From NCBI GenBank assembly GCA_964510585.1, contig CAZECW010000160.1, forward strand, positions 1 through 12,430: a stretch of DNA of 12,430 bases, written 5' to 3'. The notes below the pieces were generated by a model. It did not search any database, was not told the origin of the DNA, and was given only the letters and a program-made list of their open reading frames with translations. Below are positions 900 through 11,798 of the stretch, in pieces (the stretch's first letter is position 1; every line of letters starts with the position of its first letter). Origin of the DNA: an uncultured archaeon. GTDB taxonomy: Archaea > Asgardarchaeota > Jordiarchaeia > Jordiarchaeales > Jordiarchaeaceae. The position numbers and the translations under genes were made by a program.

Positions 900-1245
900 T
901 TAGATTTGGAAGAATTTTGCTTTGCAGTTTGGCGGGTCATATTTTAGTATTTTTACGTCGTATCCTTTTTTTAGGATTAGTTCAGCTACTCCGGCAAAAG
1001 CGACCAGCCGGGTACAGGACACCTGTCCTAGAACGGTGTAGACTCCTTCTTTGTTTAAGTCAAGGCACACATTCATATAGGCGCAGTCGCCGCTCACCTC
1101 CACTTCTACTTCTTCGTTGCCTAGGTCGGTGAGTTTTATGTCTTGATCCTTTACGAATCTTATGGCTACTAGTAGGGCTTTATATTTTTGTAGGAAATCG
1201 TAGAGATTCTTTGCTCCTTTTAGATGTTCTGTTAGGCCTAAATTT
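900..1245 (-). pseudogene. 3' remnant of a V4R/MetOD1-like Cys-containing protein, interrupted at its 5' side by an IS200/IS605-type mini-element
   Basis: The tracked 67-aa ORF (900-1103) extends upstream without a stop to the element junction: NLGLTEHLKGAKNLYDFLQKYKALLVAIRFVKDQDIKLTDLGNEEVEVEVSGDCAYMNVCLDLNKEGVYTVLGQVSCTRLVAFAGVAELILKKGYDVKILKYDPPNCKAKFFQI*. The pattern of beta-strand, C-x5-C, C and a terminal C resembles V4R-type folds (inference). All three minus-strand frames beyond the element (1522-1680) contain stops. Confidence 0.6.
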
Positions 1246-1422
1246 TTGACACTCTCCGCGACTAAAGTCGGGAGATTCTTGCTTCTGGCTCATCGGGAGC
1301 CTTCGAAGCAATGGGTGTTCCATCACCCAGTTAACACGCCCTTCCCTCAAGGGAACGGCGTCTATGTTGGCACCCTCATGGGGGCTGCGTCTTGTTTAGC
1401 CTCCTTGAGCCCAAGCCAAACC
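1226..1422 (-). ncRNA. Putative TnpB-type omega-RNA (re-RNA) scaffold plus flank-derived guide; 5' and 3' limits approximate
   Basis: Lies downstream of an internal TATA box and ends at the IS right end (...GAGAGTGTCAA). It contains consecutive hairpins at 1370-1388, 1337-1360 (CGCC-G-TTCCC/TTGA/GGGAA-G-GGCG), 1313-1328 (GGGTG/CACCC), 1281-1309 (GCTTC..GGCT/AGCC..GAAGC) and 1254-1274. Omega-RNAs are established to overlap the IS605 right end and take their guide from flanking DNA. The guide here would be AAAUUUAGGCCUAACAGAAC (1245-1226). Confidence 0.6.
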
Positions 1423-1521
1423 CTTCAGCTACCAACAACTATTTATATACCCTACTTTCAAATAAGCTTTTTGGCGATTCATCCCCACAACTAAAGTCGG
1501 GGGCTTTCTCGCCAAGGTTTT
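1246..1521 (-). mobile_element. Non-autonomous IS200/IS605-family mini-element (PATE/MITE-like, 276 bp), no tnpA or tnpB
   Basis: Minus strand left end: TTAC | AAAACCTTGGCGAG-AAAG-CCCC CGAC TTTA GTTG T GGGG. Right end: GAAT-CTCC CGAC TTTA GTCG C GGAG-AGTG-TCAA |. Both ends carry near-identical imperfect hairpins with one bulged base (1483-1503 and 1254-1274). The guide/cleavage tetranucleotide pairs AAAG/TTAC and GAAT/TCAA are those established for IS608 (ISHp608). No target-site duplication, as expected for this family. Confidence 0.88.
1442..1459 (-). promoter_or_regulatory. Putative archaeal BRE/TATA promoter inside the mini-element
   Basis: Minus strand GAAAGTAGGG-TATATAAA (TATA at 1449-1442), which predicts a start near 1417-1423. 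The same box reads TTTATATA on the plus strand, so it could be bidirectional. Confidence 0.5.
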
Positions 1522-1740
1522 GTAAGCGTTCTTTTGGGCAAGGGAGCATGATAGGCCTTTTCCTTGACCTTCGAAAAGGATCAGAAGTGTAAAAAACTAA
1601 AACTTGCCTGTCGAGGAATGAGCGTCGCAGTCCCTAGGTTTGGGTGGGTGTAGTTTTCATTAAACTTTTTTGGTTATCATATACTTTTGTGTTACTGTGT
1701 GTGCCTTTCTTTAAAAATTACTAGCAATCATAATCAGCTT

Positions 1741-1962: not shown

Positions 1963-3258
1963 ATGAGATATGTGTTATTTTTGGGTTGTTTGATTCCATA
2001 TAGACTTCCCTCGTTAGAGATGACTGCAAGAAGGGTCTTAAAAAGGCTAAATGTGGAGCTAGAAGATTTATCTGATTTCTCTTGCTGTCCGAACACCATA
2101 GCAGTGGAATCCATAAATGAAGATTATTGGTACTTTTTGGCGGCTAGGAATCTTGCATTGGCTGAAAAATGTGGGCTTGATATTTTGTGTCTGTGTAGTG
2201 GTTGTTCTGAAAGTCTTAAAAGGGCTAACTTTGAATTGAAGAAGAATTATGCTTTAAGGGAGAGAGTAAACTCTAAACTTTTAGAAATAGGTTTAAAGTA
2301 TGATGGAAGCATTGAAGTGAAACATTTTGTGGAGGTTTTAATTGAAATAGGGTTAGATACTATAAGAGAAAAAATTGTTTGTCCTCTGCATGGTTTGAAG
2401 GTGGCTTGCCACTATGGTTGTCATCTTCTCAGACCCAGCGAAGTAATTTTCTTTGATAACCCTTTGAAACCAGTGTCTCTGGATAAGTTGGTTCAAGTGC
2501 TGGGAGCGGAAACCGTTGATTACGAAAATAAAATGCTATGCTGCGGGAGCGGTCTCAGTTTAGTGAAATCAGGTGAAGCGCAGCTATTATCAAAAAGGAA
2601 ACTGGACGAGGTTAAGAATAAGGCTGATTGCTTGGTTGTTGTTTGTCCTTCCTGTTTCCAACAGTATGACTCGGTTCAGAAGCTGATGAAGGAAAAACCG
2701 GATGTTCCAGTATTTTATTATCTTGAATTACTAGGATTAGCGCTAGGAATAGAACCTGAAAGTCTAGGATTATCAACCCACAAAATAAGTGTTTCTAACT
2801 TGGTAAATAGAATAAACGAGGGTGTAGAGTCCTTAAAGGTTCTTTCCGAATTTTTTGACCTAGCAGTTCTCAAAAATTGTGCCCGATGCGGCGCATGTTC
2901 TTCGGATTGCCCAGTAGCAGATGAGAATTTTAATCCTCACAATATAGTAAAAATGCTCTTGGAGGGAAAGTTGAAAGAAGTCTTGAATGCAGGAGAATTC
3001 TGGCGATGTACCCAGTGTTATACCTGTCACGAGCTTTGTCCTCAAAACATGGGACTAATAGAAATTTTTTCAAAGCTAAAAGGTATAGCCTCTGAAAAAG
3101 AGCTTATCCCGGAGGATATCAGAAACCAGGCTGCCAATGTTTTAAACAATGGCTTTGCTATTCCGCCCTCACAAACGCTGAGAAAACGCTTTGACCTTCC
3201 TGAACCACCTAAACCGAATCTGGACAAGATTAAGAAATTGGTGAGAAGCAATGTCTAA
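1963..3258 (+). CDS. hdrBC: Heterodisulfide reductase-like HdrB-HdrC fusion (two CCG domains followed by a 2x[4Fe-4S] domain)
   Basis: N-terminal ~285 aa: LFLGC9, SC41C42P, C78SGC81, HYGC153H, LC193C194G, VC228PSC231, i.e. all ten CCG cysteines typical of HdrB. C-terminal part: C306ARC309GAC312SSDC316P and WRC349TQC352YTC355HELC359P, plus an HdrC-like tail (GFAIP...RKRFDLPEPP). Confidence 0.9.
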   Translation: MRYVLFLGCLIPYRLPSLEMTARRVLKRLNVELEDLSDFSCCPNTIAVESINEDYWYFLAARNLALAEKCGLDILCLCSGCSESLKRANFELKKNYALRERVNSKLLEIGLKYDGSIEVKHFVEVLIEIGLDTIREKIVCPLHGLKVACHYGCHLLRPSEVIFFDNPLKPVSLDKLVQVLGAETVDYENKMLCCGSGLSLVKSGEAQLLSKRKLDEVKNKADCLVVVCPSCFQQYDSVQKLMKEKPDVPVFYYLELLGLALGIEPESLGLSTHKISVSNLVNRINEGVESLKVLSEFFDLAVLKNCARCGACSSDCPVADENFNPHNIVKMLLEGKLKEVLNAGEFWRCTQCYTCHELCPQNMGLIEIFSKLKGIASEKELIPEDIRNQAANVLNNGFAIPPSQTLRKRFDLPEPPKPNLDKIKKLVRSNV

Positions 3259-4312
3259 AGTAATAGATGGTTGTGGAATCAGCGGAATTATGAGTACGAA
3301 GAAAAAACTGATTCCCGGATGTGAGATAGTTACTTCTATAGATTCGATGAACTTTAGATATAATGGGTTAGGTGGAGGATTTGCGGGTTACGGAATTTAC
3401 CCCGATTATAAGGATTACTACGCGTTCCATTTAAATTTCGAAGATCGGGAGGCGAAGACTAAAGCGGAAAACTTCCTCTATGAGCAATTAAGAGTCATAG
3501 ACGATGAGCCAATACCCGTAAGAAAATCCGAGCTCATTGATGACACTAAGTCCATAAGTTGGCGTTATTTCGTTAGCCCCCCAAAGGATATAGAAAACGC
3601 TGATGACTACATTGTTAAGGTTGTTATGCACATAAATGAAAATATTCCTGGGGCCTATGTTTTTTCAAGCGGGAAGAACATGGGAGTTTTCAAGGCGGTT
3701 GGTTATCCCAAAGCCGTGGCGGACTATTTCAGAATAGAGGATTACTCCGCATATATTTGGATAGCTCATGGAAGATATCCAACCAATACACCTGGATGGT
3801 GGGGAGGAGCGCATCCGTTTAACATACTAGATTGGTCAGTGGTTCACAATGGTGAGCTTAGTTCTTACGGTACCAACAAGAATTTTTTGGAAATGTGGGG
3901 ATACAAGTGCACCTTGCTAACTGATACTGAAGTTTTAGCATACTTGTTTGATCTACTAGTAAGGAGACATAAGATCCCCGTAGAACTTGCATGTAATGTT
4001 ATTACTCCCATGTTTTGGAGCGAAATTAATTCTGATAACAGCCCGAGAGGAAAAGCTCTTAAAGCATTAAGAATGACTTATGGGGGAGCAATTGTTAATG
4101 GGCCATTCAGCATAATTGTAGCTACTAATCGTTTTATGTTCGGATTAACAGATAGAATCAAGCTTCGCCCATTAATAGCAGCTAGGAAGGACGACTTCTT
4201 CTACATTGCTAGTGAAGAGTGCGCAATAAGAAGTGTCTGTGAAAACCCGGACATTGTCTGGGCACCCAGAGGGGGAGAGCAAGTGATTGCATATGTAAAA
4301 GAGGTGACCTAA
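3251..4312 (+). CDS. gltB1: Archaeal glutamate synthase subunit 1, class II (Ntn) glutamine amidotransferase domain
   Basis: Short propeptide then the nucleophile motif G-C8-GISG; FRYNGLGGGFA, HGRYPTNT, HPF, HNGE, TDTEV, GPFS, DRIKLRP and ASEE motifs. Overlaps hdrBC by 8 nt. Confidence 0.9.
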   Translation: MSKVIDGCGISGIMSTKKKLIPGCEIVTSIDSMNFRYNGLGGGFAGYGIYPDYKDYYAFHLNFEDREAKTKAENFLYEQLRVIDDEPIPVRKSELIDDTKSISWRYFVSPPKDIENADDYIVKVVMHINENIPGAYVFSSGKNMGVFKAVGYPKAVADYFRIEDYSAYIWIAHGRYPTNTPGWWGGAHPFNILDWSVVHNGELSSYGTNKNFLEMWGYKCTLLTDTEVLAYLFDLLVRRHKIPVELACNVITPMFWSEINSDNSPRGKALKALRMTYGGAIVNGPFSIIVATNRFMFGLTDRIKLRPLIAARKDDFFYIASEECAIRSVCENPDIVWAPRGGEQVIAYVKEVT

Positions 4313-5805
4313 TGTTTCCTCCTCAATTCAGTGTGGTAATCGACAGTGATAAGTGTGAAAAATGCAAGAGATGCACAATAAACTGCTCCTTTGAAGCCTT
4401 ATCATATGATGATAGGGAAGATAGAATAGTTTCCGATGACCGAAAATGTGTGGCATGTTTGAGGTGTGCCAGTAAATGTCCTAAAGGCGCCATAACAATT
4501 AAGAAGAATGAAATCACCTTCTCTCCGCATCCAACTTGGACTCCGGAAATACGATTAGATATAATGAAGCAAGCAGAAACTGGTGGTATGATAATCGCTG
4601 GCTGCGGAAACGATTTAGACTATCCTTGCCTATTCGACAGAATAGTCATCGATGCTTGCCAGGTAACTAACCCATCCATAGACCCCCTAAGAGAACCAAT
4701 AGAAGTATCTACCTTTCTCGGTAAAAAACCCAAACAGTTGAAAATTGGAGACGATTTCAGTTTAGAAACCGAAATAGCCCCAAACATTATGATTGATACT
4801 CCCATAGTCATCGGCCACATTTCATACGGCGCCATCAGTCTTAACGCCCATAAAGCTTTAGCTATGGCGGCTAGAAAAGCAGGAACCCTAATGGGTTCCG
4901 GTGAAGGAGGCTTACACCCTGACCTTTACGAATTCGGAGACCACATAATAGTACAAGTGGCTTCAGGGCGTTTCGGCGTTCACTCCACATATTTAGAGGT
5001 TGGTGCCGCCATAGAAATTAAAATAGGGCAGGGTGCAAAACCGGGAATAGGTGGCCATTTACCAGGCGAGAAGGTCACCGAAGATATTGCTGAAACTAGA
5101 ATGATACCAGTTCATACAGATGCCCTATCGCCAGCTCCCCATCACGACATTTACTCCATTGAGGATTTGTCTCAGCTAATCTATGCTCTCAAAGAAGAAA
5201 CAGATTACATGAAACCAGTTTTCGTTAAAATAGCTGCGGTTCACAACAGCGCAGCCATAGCCAGCGGAATCGCTCGAGCGGGTGCAGACGCAATAACTAT
5301 TGATGGTTTTAGAGGAGGAACTGGTGCAGCTCCTAAAATAGTTAGAAACCATTTAGGTATACCTATAGAGATTGCTATTGCCAGTGTGGACAAAAGGCTG
5401 CGTGACGAAGGAATAAGAAATGAAGTTTCACTTATTGCTAGTGGAAGCATAAGATCTGCTGCCGATGTTGTCAAGGCCATAGCTCTTGGGGCTGATGCTG
5501 TAGCAATTGTCACACCAGCACTCATAGCTATGGGTTGTACTGTATGTCAACAGTGTTATAGGGGGGTATGCGCGTGGGGAATATGTACAACCCGACAAGA
5601 TCTGGCTAGAAGACTTAATCCAGAAGTTGCTTCGCGAAAAGTTTACAACTTGATTAGCGCTTGGACTATGGAACTTAAAGAAGTCTTAGGAGCTTTGGGA
5701 ATGAATGCAATTGAAAGTCTCCGATACAACAGAGAACGCTTGAGAGGAGTAGGAATTGATCAAAAGACTTTAGAAATATTGGGAATAAAAGCGGCGGGTG
5801 AGTGA
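4312..5805 (+). CDS. gltB2: Archaeal glutamate synthase subunit 2, FMN-binding domain with N-terminal 2x[4Fe-4S] ferredoxin
   Basis: CEKCKRCTINC and CVACLRCASKCP; ISYGAIS, SGEGG, QVASGRFGV, EIKIGQGAKPGIGGHLPGEKV, SPAPHHDIYSIEDL, DGFRGGTGAAP and the [3Fe-4S] motif GCTVCQQCYRGVCAWG. TAATG stop/start overlap with gltB1. Confidence 0.95.
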   Translation: MFPPQFSVVIDSDKCEKCKRCTINCSFEALSYDDREDRIVSDDRKCVACLRCASKCPKGAITIKKNEITFSPHPTWTPEIRLDIMKQAETGGMIIAGCGNDLDYPCLFDRIVIDACQVTNPSIDPLREPIEVSTFLGKKPKQLKIGDDFSLETEIAPNIMIDTPIVIGHISYGAISLNAHKALAMAARKAGTLMGSGEGGLHPDLYEFGDHIIVQVASGRFGVHSTYLEVGAAIEIKIGQGAKPGIGGHLPGEKVTEDIAETRMIPVHTDALSPAPHHDIYSIEDLSQLIYALKEETDYMKPVFVKIAAVHNSAAIASGIARAGADAITIDGFRGGTGAAPKIVRNHLGIPIEIAIASVDKRLRDEGIRNEVSLIASGSIRSAADVVKAIALGADAVAIVTPALIAMGCTVCQQCYRGVCAWGICTTRQDLARRLNPEVASRKVYNLISAWTMELKEVLGALGMNAIESLRYNRERLRGVGIDQKTLEILGIKAAGE

Positions 5806-6540
5806 ATGCAGATAGATGCTAAAGGCCTTAGCTATAAGGAGTTAAACAGAAAATTAAAAGAGCTTGTATCAAAAGAAGATGCCTTAGAGATAGACGTATT
5901 GAATGTTAATGGACACCGCTACATAGGAACCGGGCTGGAAAACAGTAAGGGCATTATCCGTCTGCATGGTGTTCCTGGAAATGATTTGGCAGCGTTTATG
6001 AACGGTGGTTCAATATTTGTTTATGGAAATGCTGGGGATGGTGTAGGCAACACTATGAATGCGGGACTAGTTGTTATCCATGGAGATGCAAGAGATGTGG
6101 TAGGTTACTCCATGAGGGGAGGAAAAATTTTCATCAAAGGTAATGTGGGCTACCGAGCTGGTATCCATATGAAAGCCTATAAGAACCGTTTCCCAAGCAT
6201 AGTAGTTGGGGGAAGAGCTGAAGATTTTCTAGGGGAATACATGGCTGGCGGTATAATAGTGGTTCTGAATTCTAATAATGAGAAAAATCCTGTGGGAAAA
6301 TTCACTGCAACTGGTATTCACGGAGGAACAATATTCGTTAGAGGCAAAATTTCAGAAGAACATCTAGGAATTGGTGCCCAAATAGGAACCCCTAACGAAG
6401 AAGAAATAAACCTGCTGAATAATTTAATCTCCGAATACTTCTCATATTTCCAAGTTAATGAAAACTTGGACTCATTAGAATTCACCAAAATTCACCCTAA
6501 GAGCCACCGCCCTTTCGCAAAACTTTACGTTCTAGAGTAG
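5806..6540 (+). CDS. gltB3: Archaeal glutamate synthase subunit 3, GXGXG beta-helix domain
   Basis: Repeated G-x-x-G/GxGxG units (GVPGNDLAAFMNGG, GNAGDGVGNTMNAG, GDARDVVGYSMRGG, DFLGEYMAGG, TGIHGG). The ATG directly abuts the gltB2 TGA. Confidence 0.92.
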   Translation: MQIDAKGLSYKELNRKLKELVSKEDALEIDVLNVNGHRYIGTGLENSKGIIRLHGVPGNDLAAFMNGGSIFVYGNAGDGVGNTMNAGLVVIHGDARDVVGYSMRGGKIFIKGNVGYRAGIHMKAYKNRFPSIVVGGRAEDFLGEYMAGGIIVVLNSNNEKNPVGKFTATGIHGGTIFVRGKISEEHLGIGAQIGTPNEEEINLLNNLISEYFSYFQVNENLDSLEFTKIHPKSHRPFAKLYVLE

Positions 6541-8271: not shown

Positions 8272-9717
8272 TTATTTTCTTTTATTTAGGTGCTCTCTGT
8301 ACTCCCACATCTTACGGATGCATCTGGCTACTTTTCTTGGATCTACGTATGTTGGTATTCCTCGGCTTACAAGCATCTGGGTAAACTCTATATCTCTCGT
8401 AATTCCAAAAACTGGTCTTTTGTATTTCTCCACCAGTTTAGCTGAGTCGATGGCAATTTTTTGCATTATTTGTCTATAATTTTGTTCCGTTCTCCTAAGA
8501 TACTCCTCGCTCATACTGCCCCTTTCTCTCCAGTTTTTAATCATAACTGATAGGTCTCCTGCAAAAAATTGAATAATCAAAGAATCCACAACATCATTCT
8601 CAAATAGGATATCGCCACTCCAGGTCAGAGTATCCACGTCTCGTGTAGCCGCAAGATCTATGGGGTTTCCATGGCTCCAATAGGGAGGGGCTCTCTCACT
8701 TATCCTATCAACAATGTTTTGTGGCAATTTGGTTACTTCAAGTCCATACTCTTCACAAGCATCAGCAGCCAAAACACCCCAACCCCCACCAGGCGTAATA
8801 ATGCCTACTCTTCTACCCTGAGGTAGGATCCCCATTGAAAAAGCCATAGTATAATCAATAAGGTCTTCTGTGCCCTCACAAGTGATAATGTTATTCTGCT
8901 TGGCCACGGCATTAAATATCTGAGTGGCTCCTGCAATGGAGGCAGTGTGAGAGCGTGCAGCATTAGCACCTGCACTAGTTCTACCCGCCTTAACAACTAT
9001 GAATGGTTTCTTCTTGGTTAGCTCCTTTGTAACTTTCAAGAATCTTTCCCCGTTACGAACGCCCTCTACAAAAGCTGCTACAACCTTTGTGTCCGGGTCA
9101 TAGGTGAAATACTCAAGAAAGTCCTCCAGCTTCAAAACTGCTTCGTTTCCACTGCTGACAAATTTGGAAATACCTCCCCCCATTCTAGCTATTTCCCCCA
9201 TGAGTACTAAACCTACAGTGCCGCTTTGGCTCACCATACCAATATTCCCTTTAGGCGGGAAACTGGAAGCCATCAAGGTGTTCAGACTCAGAGAATTATT
9301 AATGTGACCCATACAGTTTGGGCCTACTGTTGCGATTTTGTTTTCTTCTGCTATTTTGACTATTTCTTCCTGCATTTTTCTGCCTTTTTCGCCCACTTCA
9401 CTGAAACCTGCGGTTATTATTATGGAGGCCTTTACTTTCTTTTCGGCACACTCTCTGAATGTTTGAGGAACGTTCTCTGCTGGGATGACGATGACTGCAA
9501 GGTCTACTTCTTCTGGTATGTCAGTTATTTTTGGATAGGTTTCCATTCCATGGACTTTCTCCATGTAAGGATTTACGGGGAAAACTTCGCCCTTGAATCC
9601 CCCGAAAATCAGATTTGAGATAACAGTGTTTCCAATTTTGCGTGGGGCATCCGTTGCTCCAATGACTGCAACTGTTCTGGGCTCAAAAAGCGGCTTTAAA
9701 TCATATTTGCTGTTCAT
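8272..9717 (-). CDS. acdA: Acetate/acyl-CoA ligase (ADP-forming) alpha subunit, paralog 2
   Basis: CoA-binding domain (LFEPRTVAVIGA, PVNP, VDLAVIVIPA, IITAGFSE, VGPNCMG), SQSG, SSGNEA, KAGRT, phospho-His motif ARSHTASIAG, NPIDL. The start was moved from the tracked TTG at 9741 to the ATG at 9717 because GGTGA lies 5 nt upstream of it. Confidence 0.9.
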   Translation of the reverse strand: MNSKYDLKPLFEPRTVAVIGATDAPRKIGNTVISNLIFGGFKGEVFPVNPYMEKVHGMETYPKITDIPEEVDLAVIVIPAENVPQTFRECAEKKVKASIIITAGFSEVGEKGRKMQEEIVKIAEENKIATVGPNCMGHINNSLSLNTLMASSFPPKGNIGMVSQSGTVGLVLMGEIARMGGGISKFVSSGNEAVLKLEDFLEYFTYDPDTKVVAAFVEGVRNGERFLKVTKELTKKKPFIVVKAGRTSAGANAARSHTASIAGATQIFNAVAKQNNIITCEGTEDLIDYTMAFSMGILPQGRRVGIITPGGGWGVLAADACEEYGLEVTKLPQNIVDRISERAPPYWSHGNPIDLAATRDVDTLTWSGDILFENDVVDSLIIQFFAGDLSVMIKNWRERGSMSEEYLRRTEQNYRQIMQKIAIDSAKLVEKYKRPVFGITRDIEFTQMLVSRGIPTYVDPRKVARCIRKMWEYREHLNKRK

Positions 9718-9835
9718 ACGTTTCACCACAAGCCCGGCCAATAATTATTTTACTGATATCCTTCCACCAAGATTAAAAGTAAACTATATTATTGGGGAGA
9801 GCAAATCGGCGAAAACACTATTAGAAATAATTTAT

Positions 9836-11296
9836 TTATTTTTCCACTTCACTGTTCCTCTCTAGGTATTCTCTGTATTCCACCATCTTTGCAATGCACT
9901 TTACTGCTCTTATGGGGCTTCCAAAAACTGGAACTCTACTATTCTTGAGAGTGTTTTGCACTTCACTATCCCTAGTCACAAATAAAACAGGTTTCCCATA
10001 CTTCTCATTTATGCTTGATGCGCTCTCCGCCAAGGCTTTCATAAACAACCTTGAGCCCTTCTTAAAGGTTTCAATCTCCTCCTCACTAAAAATATGTATT
10101 TTGGAGAGGGGATCAAATGAACTTGAAAAATCATATGCTATATACGCATATAGTAATACATCAGCTATGTCCTCTTCGAAGAGAATCTCGCCACAAAATT
10201 TGAAGAGGTTTATATCTAGGCTGGAAACGAGGTCGATAGGATTTCTATGACTCCAATAACTGGGAGCCCGCTCACTAATCTTTTCTACCACACTTGCTGA
10301 CAATGGAGGCACCTCCAAACCATATTCTTCACAAGCATCGGCCGTCAGAACAGCCCACCCTCCAGCTCCACTTAGGATTCCCACCCTTCTTCCCTTGGGC
10401 AAAGGGCACTTGGCAAAGGCGGTGGCATAATCCACAAGCTCATCACTATTCTCTGCCAAAACAATTCCGGTCTGTTTTGCCACAGCGCGAAAAACCTGAA
10501 TTGAGCCGGCAATAGAACTAGTGTGGGAACGGGCGGCCTCAGAACCAGCCTTCGTTTTACCCGCCTTAATAGCTATAAAGGGTTTTTTGCTGGTTAACTT
10601 TCTCGCCACATCAATGAATCTCCTTCCATCTCGAACCCCTTCAATAAAAGCCACAACAACCCCTGCGTCAGGGTCGCTGCTATAATACTCCAGATAATCC
10701 TCCAATTTCAATACTGCCTCATTTCCGCTACTCACAAATTTTGTGAAACCCGCTCCAGTCTTGGAGATGGCATCCATAAGCACCATTCCCAGAGTTCCAG
10801 ACTGAGAAACCATGGCTATGTTTCCCTTATTAGGATTTATGGGGCTCATTATCGCGGTCAGATTTCCAGAAGCGCTATAAACACCCATACAGTTGGGACC
10901 TACTATTTTCATTCCACTTCTCTGACCTATTTCAGAAATCTCATTCTGCAACTTTTCCCCTTCTCCACCCACCTCCTTAAAGCCGGCAGTAATTATGATA
11001 CAGGCTTTAACCCCCTTCTCCTCACACTCCCTTAAAACCTTAACAGCAGTATTGGCAGGAACCGTCAACACAGCTAGATCAACGTCTACCGGAATGGAAG
11101 TAACATTGGGATATGCCTTTAATCCCAAAACCACGCTCTCATAAGGATTCACTGGATAAATTTCACCTCTAAACTCTCCAGAAAGAATAGCGGCCAAGGT
11201 AGCGCCACCAATCTTCCCAAAAGTATTAGATGCACCAACCACCGCAACATTACTTGGTTTAAACAGAGCTTCAAAACCCATTTTTTTACCATTCAT
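9836..11296 (-). CDS. acdA: Acetate/acyl-CoA ligase (ADP-forming) alpha subunit, paralog 1
   Basis: LFKPSNVAVVGAS, PVNP, VDLAVLTVPA, IITAGFKE, VGPNCMG, SQSG, SSGNEA, KAGKT, ARSHTSSIAG, NPIDL. The start was moved from the tracked TTG at 11323 to the ATG at 11296, which has GGAGA upstream. Confidence 0.9.
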   Translation of the reverse strand: MNGKKMGFEALFKPSNVAVVGASNTFGKIGGATLAAILSGEFRGEIYPVNPYESVVLGLKAYPNVTSIPVDVDLAVLTVPANTAVKVLRECEEKGVKACIIITAGFKEVGGEGEKLQNEISEIGQRSGMKIVGPNCMGVYSASGNLTAIMSPINPNKGNIAMVSQSGTLGMVLMDAISKTGAGFTKFVSSGNEAVLKLEDYLEYYSSDPDAGVVVAFIEGVRDGRRFIDVARKLTSKKPFIAIKAGKTKAGSEAARSHTSSIAGSIQVFRAVAKQTGIVLAENSDELVDYATAFAKCPLPKGRRVGILSGAGGWAVLTADACEEYGLEVPPLSASVVEKISERAPSYWSHRNPIDLVSSLDINLFKFCGEILFEEDIADVLLYAYIAYDFSSSFDPLSKIHIFSEEEIETFKKGSRLFMKALAESASSINEKYGKPVLFVTRDSEVQNTLKNSRVPVFGSPIRAVKCIAKMVEYREYLERNSEVEK

Positions 11297-11798
11297 ACTT
11301 ATCTCCAAACCCGAAGGTATCAACTACAAATATAAATAATTTTAGGGAACTTTTCCATCACAAAATAACAGAAATTGTATTTTAGTTTTTACACCGCACA
11401 GCCTCTTCTTACAAGAGTAACCTACAAAATATTAGCATTGCCAACCTTTTCGTCACCTAGCGTGTACTCCATAAAATTTGGATATGCTGCCTTTCCCTGC
11501 TGGTACAGGTGCATTCTATTTCAGGAAGGTGGTGGAGTCTAATCTAGTATATCGTAGTATGCAAAAGAACCTGAGGAAGGCGCAGGCTCTCTTCACTCCT
11601 AGTTATTCTATGAGAATGACGCCACTGAAAAATTTTAAACAGTCCTTTAGGTGTGAAAAAAGGGGTTCCACGCAAAAAATATTTGCGCTATAGATCAAAA
11701 AAGCTGGTTGGCTCCTCCAAATAAACTTAGTTGTTACTATCAAAATATTTATTTGTAAAACTATCTCTAAATTATCTTAGGTTATTGGAGGTTACCTC

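What the first reader, a model, noticed from the sequence alone, without database searches (positions are those of the whole stretch)
1226..1459. Self-contained omega-RNA expression cassette (promoter + scaffold + guide) without tnpB
Seen: inside the mini-element a BRE/TATA box points toward the right end. It is followed by about 175 nt made almost entirely of hairpins, ending in GAGAGTGTCAA. No TnpB RuvC remnant (such as a DRDxNA motif) is recognisable. Established: TnpB uses a right-end-derived RNA whose 3' guide comes from flanking DNA and cuts the empty donor joint next to a TAM equal to the left cleavage motif. Inference: the element has shed both proteins but kept the promoter and RNA needed to program a TnpB in trans. 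It would target TTAC + AAATTTAGGCCTAACAGAAC, i.e. any restored copy of the gene. In an archaeon this would amount to a distributed set of guide RNAs and could lock in gene inactivation. It also predicts the TAM (TTAC-like) of a not-yet-seen nuclease.
Basis: partly seen in the sequence, partly recalled or inferred. Interest (0 to 1): 0.75.

Follow-up and report, generated by a model that had tools for sequence, protein, structure and literature searches.

The report
Gene-less mini-transposon carrying guide-RNA scaffold
This is one of about 70-80 copies of a 276-base, protein-free mini-transposon in an Asgard archaeon; it keeps its parent's two ends, the parent's promoter and the folded guide-RNA part of the parent's TnpB nuclease gene, which is a kind of element already described, so it is a clear but fairly ordinary case.

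Summary
On the minus strand of window 1246-1521 lies a 276-nt IS200/IS605 (IS608-type) mini-element, inserted 3' of TTAC and ending in GAGAGTGTCAA. It has a TATA-like box and about 185 nt of stacked hairpins. The assembly holds about 70-80 copies, each with a different 3' flank.

- The genome encodes tnpA-tnpB parents.
- The last 123 nt are homologous, also in frame, to the tnpB 3' end plus right end.
- The TATA box matches the parent's tnpA promoter.
- The hairpins show compensatory changes across 64 elements from many phyla.

Three sub-claims fail. A tnpB remnant is recognisable. The nuclease is not unseen. The gene's 5' half is not next to this copy. Transcription and use by TnpB remain untested.

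The kind is known. Standalone mobilised omegaRNAs work in trans (Altae-Tran 2021, as summarised in PMC10691335), and PATEs often carry omegaRNAs (Meers 2023). This scan had already noted the family in 54 windows of this genome, and similar elements in other genomes.

One part is unexplained. A 42-nt hairpin (H0) was found only in protein-free elements.

The parts
1522..1525 (-). TTAC: the target tetranucleotide 5' of the left end, which is also the predicted TAM
   Evidence: Present at all but two of 31 full copies. No substitution in about 74 copies. Orthologous intact genes have TTAC at this exact point.
1473..1521 (-). Left end. AAAG lies at 1507-1504. The subterminal hairpin CCCCCGAC..GTGGGG lies at 1503-1483, inside an outer GGCGA/TCGCC stem.
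   Evidence: 89-96% identical to the left ends just upstream of tnpA (Y1) on contigs C7, C162 and C169.
1430..1472 (-). Spacer with a TATA-like box (TATATAAATA at 1449-1440) and an upstream A/T box (1467-1455). It is the remnant of the parent's tnpA promoter region.
   Evidence: It aligns with the parent's GGTATATTGATAG, which lies about 30 nt before the tnpA ATG. A metagenome variant of the mini-element carries exactly GGTATATTGATAG. This region is the most variable in the family.
1382..1423 (-). H0: a long bulged hairpin at the 5' end of the predicted RNA
   Evidence: 15 pairs, about 97% of cells paired; structure-wide (H0 plus H1, 23 pairs), 8 pairs changed on both sides, across three mini-element lineages. 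Found only in protein-free elements.
1247..1369 (-). Remnant of the last about 40 codons of tnpB together with the right end. In full-length elements this same stretch is the omegaRNA scaffold region.
   Evidence: 74% nucleotide identity over 123 nt to the tnpB 3' end plus right end on C8, C54, C152 and C45. 93% over the last 42 nt to C81. In-frame protein match.
1336..1361 (-). H1 hairpin
   Evidence: 4 of 8 pairs show changes on both sides in alignment A1. All 8 do so across 64 elements.
1312..1329 (-). H2 hairpin (GGGUG/CACCC). In this copy the otherwise conserved loop base at 1319 is changed (GAUGGCAC to GAUGGAAC).
   Evidence: Consensus of the copies.
1279..1311 (-). H3: outer stem UUGCUUC/GAAGCAA around an inner hairpin. 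Relatives carry a variable insertion here.
   Evidence: for example TTGGA/TCCAA in the C8-type IS.
1253..1278 (-). GAAT plus H4, the right-end subterminal hairpin recognised by TnpA
   Evidence: Nearly identical in more than 60 contigs of many archaeal and bacterial phyla. 96% of cells paired.
1246..1252 (-). Terminal GTGTCAA. The element ends after TCAA.
   Evidence: Flanks diverge right after ..GTCAA in all copies. No substitutions in 69 copies.
1226..1245 (-). The 3' flank that would be read as the guide (AAAUUUAGGCCUAACAGAAC)
   Evidence: The 69 copies have 69 different flanks. That it serves as a guide is an inference from how TnpB omegaRNAs work.
900..1245 (-). 3' part (114 codons) of the interrupted host gene, which has no Pfam family
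   Evidence: 85-88% identical to the C-terminal half of orthologues with 218-codon open frames in three genomes of the genus.

Best explanation
Window 1246-1521 (minus strand) is a palindrome-associated mini-transposon (PATE/MITE) of an IS608-type IS200/IS605 family in an Asgard archaeon.

It arose from a tnpA-tnpB element by an internal deletion. The deletion joined the left end and the tnpA promoter region to the last about 185 nt of the element. In full-length relatives, that stretch overlaps the end of tnpB and encodes the omegaRNA scaffold.

Shown:
- The structure of the element.
- The homology to the parents.
- The conserved, covarying hairpins.
- The TTAC target.
- The presence of matching tnpA and tnpB genes elsewhere in the genome.

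Inferred:
- The Y1 transposase of the full-length copies moves it as single-stranded DNA.
- The retained promoter drives an RNA of about 170-185 nt that runs through ..GUGUCAA into the flank. Each of the 70-80 copies would then make a scaffold with its own 16-20 nt guide.
- A TnpB supplied in trans loads these RNAs and cuts the TTAC-flanked empty site left by excision. Recombination with a copy that still holds the element then restores it. This is the homing model of Meers et al.
- For this copy the target would be TTAC+AAATTTAGGCCTAACAGAAC.
For: - The family has 31 full copies, 69 right halves and 80 left halves. It has no terminal inverted repeats and no target duplication. TTAC is invariant and the 69 flanks are all different.
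- The empty site is seen in three congeneric genomes.
- Y1 tnpA and tnpB are present. The left end is 89-96% identical to the left ends of the tnpA-bearing ISs.
- The last 123 nt align with the tnpB 3' end plus right end at 74%, and in frame.
- The TATA box is homologous to the parent's tnpA promoter box.
- For H1-H4, 94% of cells are paired, against at most 58% when the 3' partners are shifted by 1-3 columns. Eight pairs changed on both sides, and 0 of 500 shuffles reached the covariation score.
- A covariance model built from these hairpins matches the right end of 64 distinct elements, where 26 of 31 pairs show compensatory changes. That alignment is fitted to the model, so it leans toward the structure.
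- In full-length elements the match overlaps the tnpB 3' end.
- In the independent mini-element families for which the retained segment was traced (same-genus G004, Hadesarchaea and Hadarchaeota), at least 113 nt before the right end are kept, back to the RuvC-III codons; none of the other families (Nitrososphaeria, Methanomethylicaceae, Hakubella) is reduced to the TnpA hairpin alone, though their 5' boundary was not traced.
- Substitutions shared among copies are 3-5 times rarer in the scaffold than in the promoter and spacer.
- There is no orientation bias relative to neighbouring ORFs, so the element does not seem to depend on host read-through.
- In the literature, standalone mobilised omegaRNAs work in trans (PMC10691335, citing Altae-Tran 2021), and PATEs 'often encode omegaRNAs' (10.1101/2023.03.14.532601).
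Against: - There is no expression, binding or cleavage data of any kind.
- The TATA-like patch is the most variable part of the family. About half of the copies differ from TATATAAATA, and two copies lack it. No clear BRE is seen.
- The scaffold is only 74% identical to that of the closest resident TnpB element, and H1 and H3 differ in sequence. Cross-use is therefore assumed, not shown.
- The resident TnpBs have glycine at the canonical RuvC-II glutamate. Such 'rearranged' TnpBs are predicted, not proven, to be active.
- This copy has a change in a conserved H2 loop base (window 1319).
- One copy's TTAC+guide has an intact match elsewhere in the assembly, which an efficient nuclease should not tolerate. 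It may instead be a strain variant.
- Singleton substitutions are too few to test selection on individual copies.
Confidence: 0.6

Rival explanations
1. It is a passive deletion derivative. The element is mobilised by TnpA through its two end hairpins. The promoter remnant and the scaffold are inherited baggage, and any transcript has no role with TnpB.
For: - The expansion is very recent, with 1.55 singleton substitutions per 1000 sites per copy. Conservation among copies therefore says little about selection.
- The TATA patch varies.
- The scaffold is only 74% identical to the resident parents'.
- An intact TTAC+guide site coexists for one copy.
Against: - In the independent mini-element families that were traced (G004, Hadesarchaea, Hadarchaeota), at least 113 nt before the right end are kept, far more than the single TnpA-binding hairpin.
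- Stems differ from the parents by compensatory changes, while the single-stranded joints stay the same.
- Shared substitutions avoid the scaffold.
- H0 covaries among mini-element lineages.
Confidence: 0.25
2. The conserved hairpins act otherwise than as a guide. They could be single-stranded DNA structure that helps excision or integration. They could also be an RNA that titrates or regulates TnpB (a decoy) rather than directing cleavage.
For: - IS200/IS605 elements move as top-strand single-stranded DNA, which has the same sequence as the RNA. Pairing and G-T wobbles therefore cannot tell DNA from RNA.
- 70-80 RNA copies against a handful of tnpB genes would compete for the protein.
Against: - For IS608-type elements, only the subterminal hairpin and the adjacent tetranucleotide are known to be needed by TnpA (recalled from the literature, not tested here).
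- In full-length relatives the same structure sits where omegaRNAs are encoded.
Confidence: 0.08
3. The element matters mainly as a mobile outward-reading promoter that alters expression of the host DNA 3' of the right end.
For: A promoter remnant points out through the right end. In this copy it reads into the remaining 114 codons of the interrupted gene, in sense.
Against: No orientation bias relative to downstream ORFs (12 same, 11 opposite). The promoter patch is poorly conserved. This would not explain the conserved scaffold.
Confidence: 0.05

Closest known systems
Standalone (effector-less) mobilised omegaRNAs of OMEGA systems (Altae-Tran et al. 2021, as summarised in PMC10691335)
   Same: A guide-RNA scaffold of a TnpB-type element, with transposon ends but without nuclease or transposase. 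It lies in the same genome as effector-bearing loci. Each copy abuts a different flank that would act as the guide.
   Different: Function in trans is not tested here. The host is an Asgard archaeon. The copy number is high (about 70-80). The scaffold sits behind the parent's tnpA promoter. An extra 5' hairpin (H0) was not found in the full-length elements examined.
PATEs (palindrome-associated transposable elements) of IS200/IS605, for example the ISGst family of Geobacillus stearothermophilus (Meers et al. 2023, preprint 10.1101/2023.03.14.532601)
   Same: Protein-free elements with the left-end and right-end hairpins of a resident IS200/IS605 family, mobilised in trans by TnpA. They are said to 'often encode omegaRNAs' that TnpB must use in trans.
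   Different: The domain of life and the IS subfamily differ. No excision or interference assay has been done here.
IS608 of Helicobacter pylori (IS200/IS605 family)
   Same: Insertion 3' of TTAC, a right end finishing in TCAA, AAAG before the left hairpin and GAAT before the right hairpin, and no inverted repeats or target duplication. The IS608 code is recalled from the literature. The motifs themselves are read directly from the sequence.
   Different: This element has no genes. The resident TnpBs carry glycine at the canonical RuvC-II glutamate.
sotRNAs/omegaRNAs of archaeal IS1341-type tnpB genes (Halobacterium; see PMC12558985)
   Same: Archaeal RNAs that overlap the 3' end of tnpB in sense and end at the element's right end.
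   Different: Those RNAs are made from loci that still hold tnpB. No transcript data exist here.

Membership tests
IS200/IS605 protein-free derivative (PATE/MITE) | No terminal inverted repeats and no target-site duplication; insertion 3' of a fixed tetranucleotide | tested here: met
   All copies read TTAC|element|unrelated flank. The empty site TTAC|(C/A)AATTTAGG is seen in orthologues.
IS200/IS605 protein-free derivative (PATE/MITE) | Subterminal hairpins at both ends, shared with a tnpA(Y1)-bearing element of the same genome | tested here: met
   The left end is 89-96% identical to the left ends upstream of tnpA on C7, C162 and C169. The right-end hairpin is about the same as on C8 and C81.
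IS200/IS605 protein-free derivative (PATE/MITE) | No protein-coding capacity; many copies | tested here: met
   Only a stop-interrupted tnpB tail remnant remains. The assembly holds 69-80 copies.
IS200/IS605 protein-free derivative (PATE/MITE) | Mobilised in trans by TnpA | not testable with these tools
   Implied by many near-identical copies at different sites. No excision assay was done.
TnpB omegaRNA (standalone) | The scaffold ends exactly at the right-end boundary and is homologous to the tnpB 3' end plus right end of a cognate element | tested here: met
   123 nt are colinear with the tnpB 3' end plus right end, at 74% nucleotide identity and in frame. The model R1 match overlaps the tnpB 3' ends in full-length loci.
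TnpB omegaRNA (standalone) | Conserved secondary structure supported by covariation | tested here: met
   Caveat: alignment A3 is fitted to the model, and H1-H2 overlap coding sequence in the parents.
TnpB omegaRNA (standalone) | A compatible TnpB with an intact active site in the same genome | tested here: inconclusive
   tnpB is present, but the copies in this genome are split by the assembly. The RuvC-I and RuvC-III aspartates are kept. The canonical RuvC-II glutamate is glycine, as in the 'RIIr' clades, which are predicted to be active.
TnpB omegaRNA (standalone) | Transcribed; the 3' guide is taken from the flank | not testable with these tools
   Only a promoter remnant homologous to the tnpA promoter is seen. 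There is no RNA data.
TnpB omegaRNA (standalone) | Bound by TnpB and directs TAM-dependent cleavage | not testable with these tools
   Not tested.
Any curated Rfam family | Match to a covariance model at the gathering score | tested here: not met
   No match at the gathering score. Only chance-level matches at E up to 10.

The most novel reading that the evidence does not exclude
The 42-nt hairpin H0 (window 1423-1382) may be an RNA module that belongs to the protein-free elements themselves, not to any tnpB gene.

- It is 73-75% identical between mini-element families that have different transposon ends and live in different Asgard families and in a Bathyarchaeota MAG.
- It covaries.
- It was found in 27 of 27 metagenome hits only inside protein-free elements.
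- The full-length tnpB 3' ends examined hold only a short or unrecognisable counterpart.

If so, mini-elements would evolve, and exchange by recombination, their own guide-RNA add-on. Possible roles are stability, 5' processing, or competing for TnpB.
Probability: 0.15. Interest if true: 0.55.

Novelty: new member of a known kind. Interest (0 to 1): 0.35.

Why it matters
It is a clean natural example of the idea that TnpB guide RNAs can live on their own mobile, gene-less carriers. The host is an Asgard archaeon. About 70-80 carriers each offer a different guide to a few nuclease genes. The TAM (TTAC) can be read directly from the insertions.

This gives a ready test system for three questions:
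- trans use of omegaRNAs;
- the activity of TnpBs with a rearranged RuvC-II site;
- which scaffold parts the nuclease needs, using the natural variants of H1 and H3 and the extra H0.

It does not open a new category.

Tried and rejected
- **Rfam.** No family matched, either at the gathering score or at E up to 10.
- **Origin of element positions 97-156 in the resident parents.** A nucleotide search gave only a 14-nt match, barely above shuffles. A hand-read protein similarity (LKGLAWA*EAKQDAA against LKCKQCGIEAHRDVA) needs a frameshift and was not found by tblastn. I dropped it as evidence.
- **An alternative fold.** A hairpin pairing GCAGCCC with GGGUGC was less well supported than H0 (about 80% against about 97% of cells paired).
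- **H0 in full-length elements.** Model R2 gave only H1-like matches at the colinear place. In G314 the parent is colinear but only weakly similar. The origin of H0 stays open.
- **Selection on individual copies.** A test from singleton substitutions had too few events.
- **Sulfolobus SMN1.** I looked for literature on it as an archaeal precedent. Nothing usable is in the held library, so it is not cited.

Full report
**What is there.** Read on the minus strand, window 1525-1226 contains the following, in order:
- TTAC (1525-1522).
- A left end with AAAG and a hairpin (1521-1473).
- An A/T-rich spacer with TATATAAATA (1449-1440).
- About 185 nt of stacked hairpins ending in GAGAGTGTCAA (1256-1246).
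- The flank AAATTTAGGCCTAACAGAAC (1245-1226).

The stretch 1435-1226 folds far better than shuffles (-83.7 against -63.9 +/- 4.2 kcal/mol, z = -4.67). No Rfam family matches.

**It is a repeated mobile element.**
- BLAST against the window's own genome (3.78 Mb, 217 contigs) gives 140 pieces. Many lie at contig ends, so the repeat breaks the assembly.
- Thirty-one full copies all begin TTAC|AAAACCTTGGCGAG and end ..GAGAGTGTCAA. The flanks are unrelated, and there are no inverted repeats and no target duplication.
- I count 69 right halves and 80 left halves, with 69 different 3' flanks.
- TTAC and the last 7 bases show no substitution in about 70 copies.
- These are the hallmarks of IS200/IS605. 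The motifs TTAC, AAAG, GAAT and TCAA are those I recall for IS608.

**The insertion site.** Joining the flanks restores an open frame. Orthologues in three genomes of the same genus have 218-codon open frames. They read ..GTTAC|C/AAATTTAGGCCTAACAGAACAT.. at this codon. The boundaries are therefore 1246 and 1521, and the target is TTAC.

The DNA upstream of this copy is not the gene's 5' half. That half lies on contig C169 (12612-12923), directly beside another copy of the element. Either two copies recombined, or the assembler joined reads wrongly across the repeat.

**Host.**
- The genome has TBP genes, so it is an archaeon.
- Two genomes of the same genus are 100% identical over 3.0-3.3 kb to named records. 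The records are Candidatus Jordarchaeia archaeon QZM_A3 and Candidatus Freyarchaeota archaeon SQRJ_82.
- The host is therefore an Asgard archaeon.

**Parents.**
- The genome has tnpB (PF07282; 5 loci) and Y1 tnpA (PF01797; 4 loci).
- Contigs C7, C162 and C169 carry a left end, tnpA and the start of tnpB. C8, C54, C152 and C45 carry the end of tnpB and the right end. C81 holds a divergent whole element.
- The mini-element's first about 64 nt are 89-96% identical to these left ends.
- Its spacer aligns with the parent's region between the left end and the tnpA ATG. The box GGTATATAAATAG lies opposite the parent's GGTATATTGATAG, about 30 nt before the ATG. A metagenome variant of the mini-element has exactly the parental box.
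- Its last 123 nt align with the tnpB 3' end plus right end of the C8 type at 74%. The last 42 nt align with C81 at 93%.
- In frame they read NIDAVPLREGRVNWVMAHPLLRRLPMSQKQESPDFSRGECQ. A full-length TnpB of the same type from a congeneric genome reads NIGAVHNGGHVNWAVAHPLEALNMSFQESPDFSRGEC (26 of 40 identical).

**Structure.**
- An alignment of 14 right-end regions covers the mini-element, resident ISs, a different 213-nt mini-element of the same-genus genome G004, and Hadesarchaea and Hadarchaeota elements. It gives four hairpins, H1-H4.
- In that alignment, 94% of cells are paired, against 34-58% when the 3' partners are shifted by 1-3 columns. Eight pairs changed on both sides, and 0 of 500 shuffles reached the covariation score.
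- The joints between stems (GUUAAC, CAUUG, AAGAAUC) stay constant, while the stems of H1 and H3 differ between the mini-element and its parents in compensated fashion.
- A covariance model of this structure matches the right ends of 64 distinct elements from many archaeal and bacterial phyla. There, 92% of cells are paired and 26 of 31 pairs show compensatory changes. That alignment is fitted to the model.
- In full-length elements the match overlaps the tnpB 3' end, which is where omegaRNAs are encoded.
- The right-end 24-mer occurs exactly in at least 60 contigs across phyla.

**Independent mini-elements.** Protein-free derivatives were seen in same-genus G004, Hadesarchaea, Hadarchaeota, Nitrososphaeria, Methanomethylicaceae and the bacterium Hakubella. 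Those whose retained segment I traced (G004, Hadesarchaea, Hadarchaeota) keep at least 113 nt before the right end, back to the RuvC-III codons. None of the others is reduced to the TnpA hairpin alone, though I did not trace their 5' boundary. Among copies in this genome, shared substitutions are 3-5 times denser in the promoter and spacer than in the scaffold. Both points argue that the scaffold, not only the ends, is kept for a reason.

**The extra hairpin H0.**
- Element positions 97-156 have no convincing match in the resident parents.
- They are 73-75% identical to the same part of mini-elements with different ends in two other Asgard genomes (G038, G314) and in a Bathyarchaeota MAG.
- They form a 15-pair bulged hairpin with about 97% of cells paired. 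In the tested structure (H0 plus H1, 23 pairs), 8 pairs changed on both sides.
- A model of it, and a pattern scan of metagenomes, found it only in protein-free elements (27 of 27).
- Full-length tnpB 3' ends show only the neighbouring H1 and a colinear but weakly similar stretch.
- Its origin and role are open.

**Weak points of the functional reading.**
- Nothing shows transcription.
- The TATA patch is the most variable spot of the family. It reads TATATAAATA in about half of the copies. Other copies read TACATAAATA, TATGTAAATA, TATACTAATA or TATACCAATA, and the box is absent in two. I see no clear BRE.
- Orientation relative to neighbouring ORFs is random (13:12 and 12:11). This fits an own promoter, but it also fits no expression at all.
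- The resident TnpBs have glycine at the canonical RuvC-II glutamate (IVVGNL, IVLGRL, aligned to MEDL of Cas12f). The literature describes such 'rearranged' clades, with an alternative glutamate, as probably active but untested (PMC10691335).
- This particular copy has a changed base in the conserved H2 loop (window 1319).
- One other copy's TTAC+guide has an intact match on contig C154.

**Comparison with what is known.**
- PMC10691335 summarises Altae-Tran et al. 2021. [quoted passage not shown] - The element here is a member of that kind. Its particulars are the Asgard host, the high copy number, the tnpA promoter fused to the scaffold, and H0.
- This scan had already noted the family in 54 windows of this genome, and one follow-up reached the same conclusion. 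Similar elements were reported in other genomes.

**Verdict.** The element is a new member of a known kind, of modest interest.

Noticed in passing
window 900-1245 and 1526-1960; genome contig C169:12338-12923: The two halves of the interrupted gene lie on different contigs, each next to a different copy of the mini-element. The DNA upstream of the window copy is unrelated to the gene. Either two copies recombined, or the assembly is mis-joined across the 280-nt repeat.
   Followed up: partly
genome contigs C12:8676-8955 and C154:2120-2139: The TTAC plus 20-nt flank of the C12 copy occurs intact and uninterrupted on contig C154. This could be a paralogue, a strain variant or an empty allele. 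If the guide system were efficient, this site should be cut.
   Followed up: partly
L170 (G004 contig C141) 1450-2487 minus; genome contig C81:5072-6787 minus: The TnpBs of this IS family have glycine where the canonical RuvC-II glutamate sits (IVVGNL, IVLGRL) and an acidic residue in VDERGTS/VEEGSEY. This is like the 'RuvC-II rearranged' clades of the literature.
   Followed up: partly
L170 1315-1450 minus: In the congeneric full-length element, the tnpB frame has no stop inside the element. It reads through ..SRGECQ at the right end into the flank, so the stop codon is supplied by the insertion site.
   Followed up: no
genome contig C81:5072-6787 minus: A single 571-codon open frame spans a frameshifted tnpA remnant and an apparently whole tnpB. 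This looks like a decayed autonomous element that has become tnpB-only.
   Followed up: no
loci L040-L099: The 24-nt right-end sequence GACTTTAGTCGNGGRGAGTGTCAA is found exactly in at least 60 contigs. They come from Asgard, Bathyarchaeota, Aenigmarchaeota, Nitrososphaeria, Archaeoglobi, Hadarchaeota and several bacterial phyla. This is an unusually wide and exact conservation for a transposon end.
   Followed up: partly
window 1440-1449 and the same place in other copies: Substitutions among copies cluster in four bases of the TATA-like box (TATA to TACA, TATG, TACT or TACC). This could be relaxed constraint or copy-specific silencing of the promoter.
   Followed up: partly
window 8272-9741 and 9836-11323, minus strand: Two adjacent paralogous genes carry CoA-binding and succinyl-CoA-ligase-like domains (the type of ADP-forming acyl-CoA synthetase).
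   Followed up: no
window 1963-6540, plus strand: A CCG-domain/4Fe-4S fusion protein (HdrB/HdrC-like) is followed by three separate genes for glutamate-synthase domains (GATase_2, Glu_synthase with ferredoxin, GXGXG). Another first-stage note already flags the fusion.
   Followed up: no
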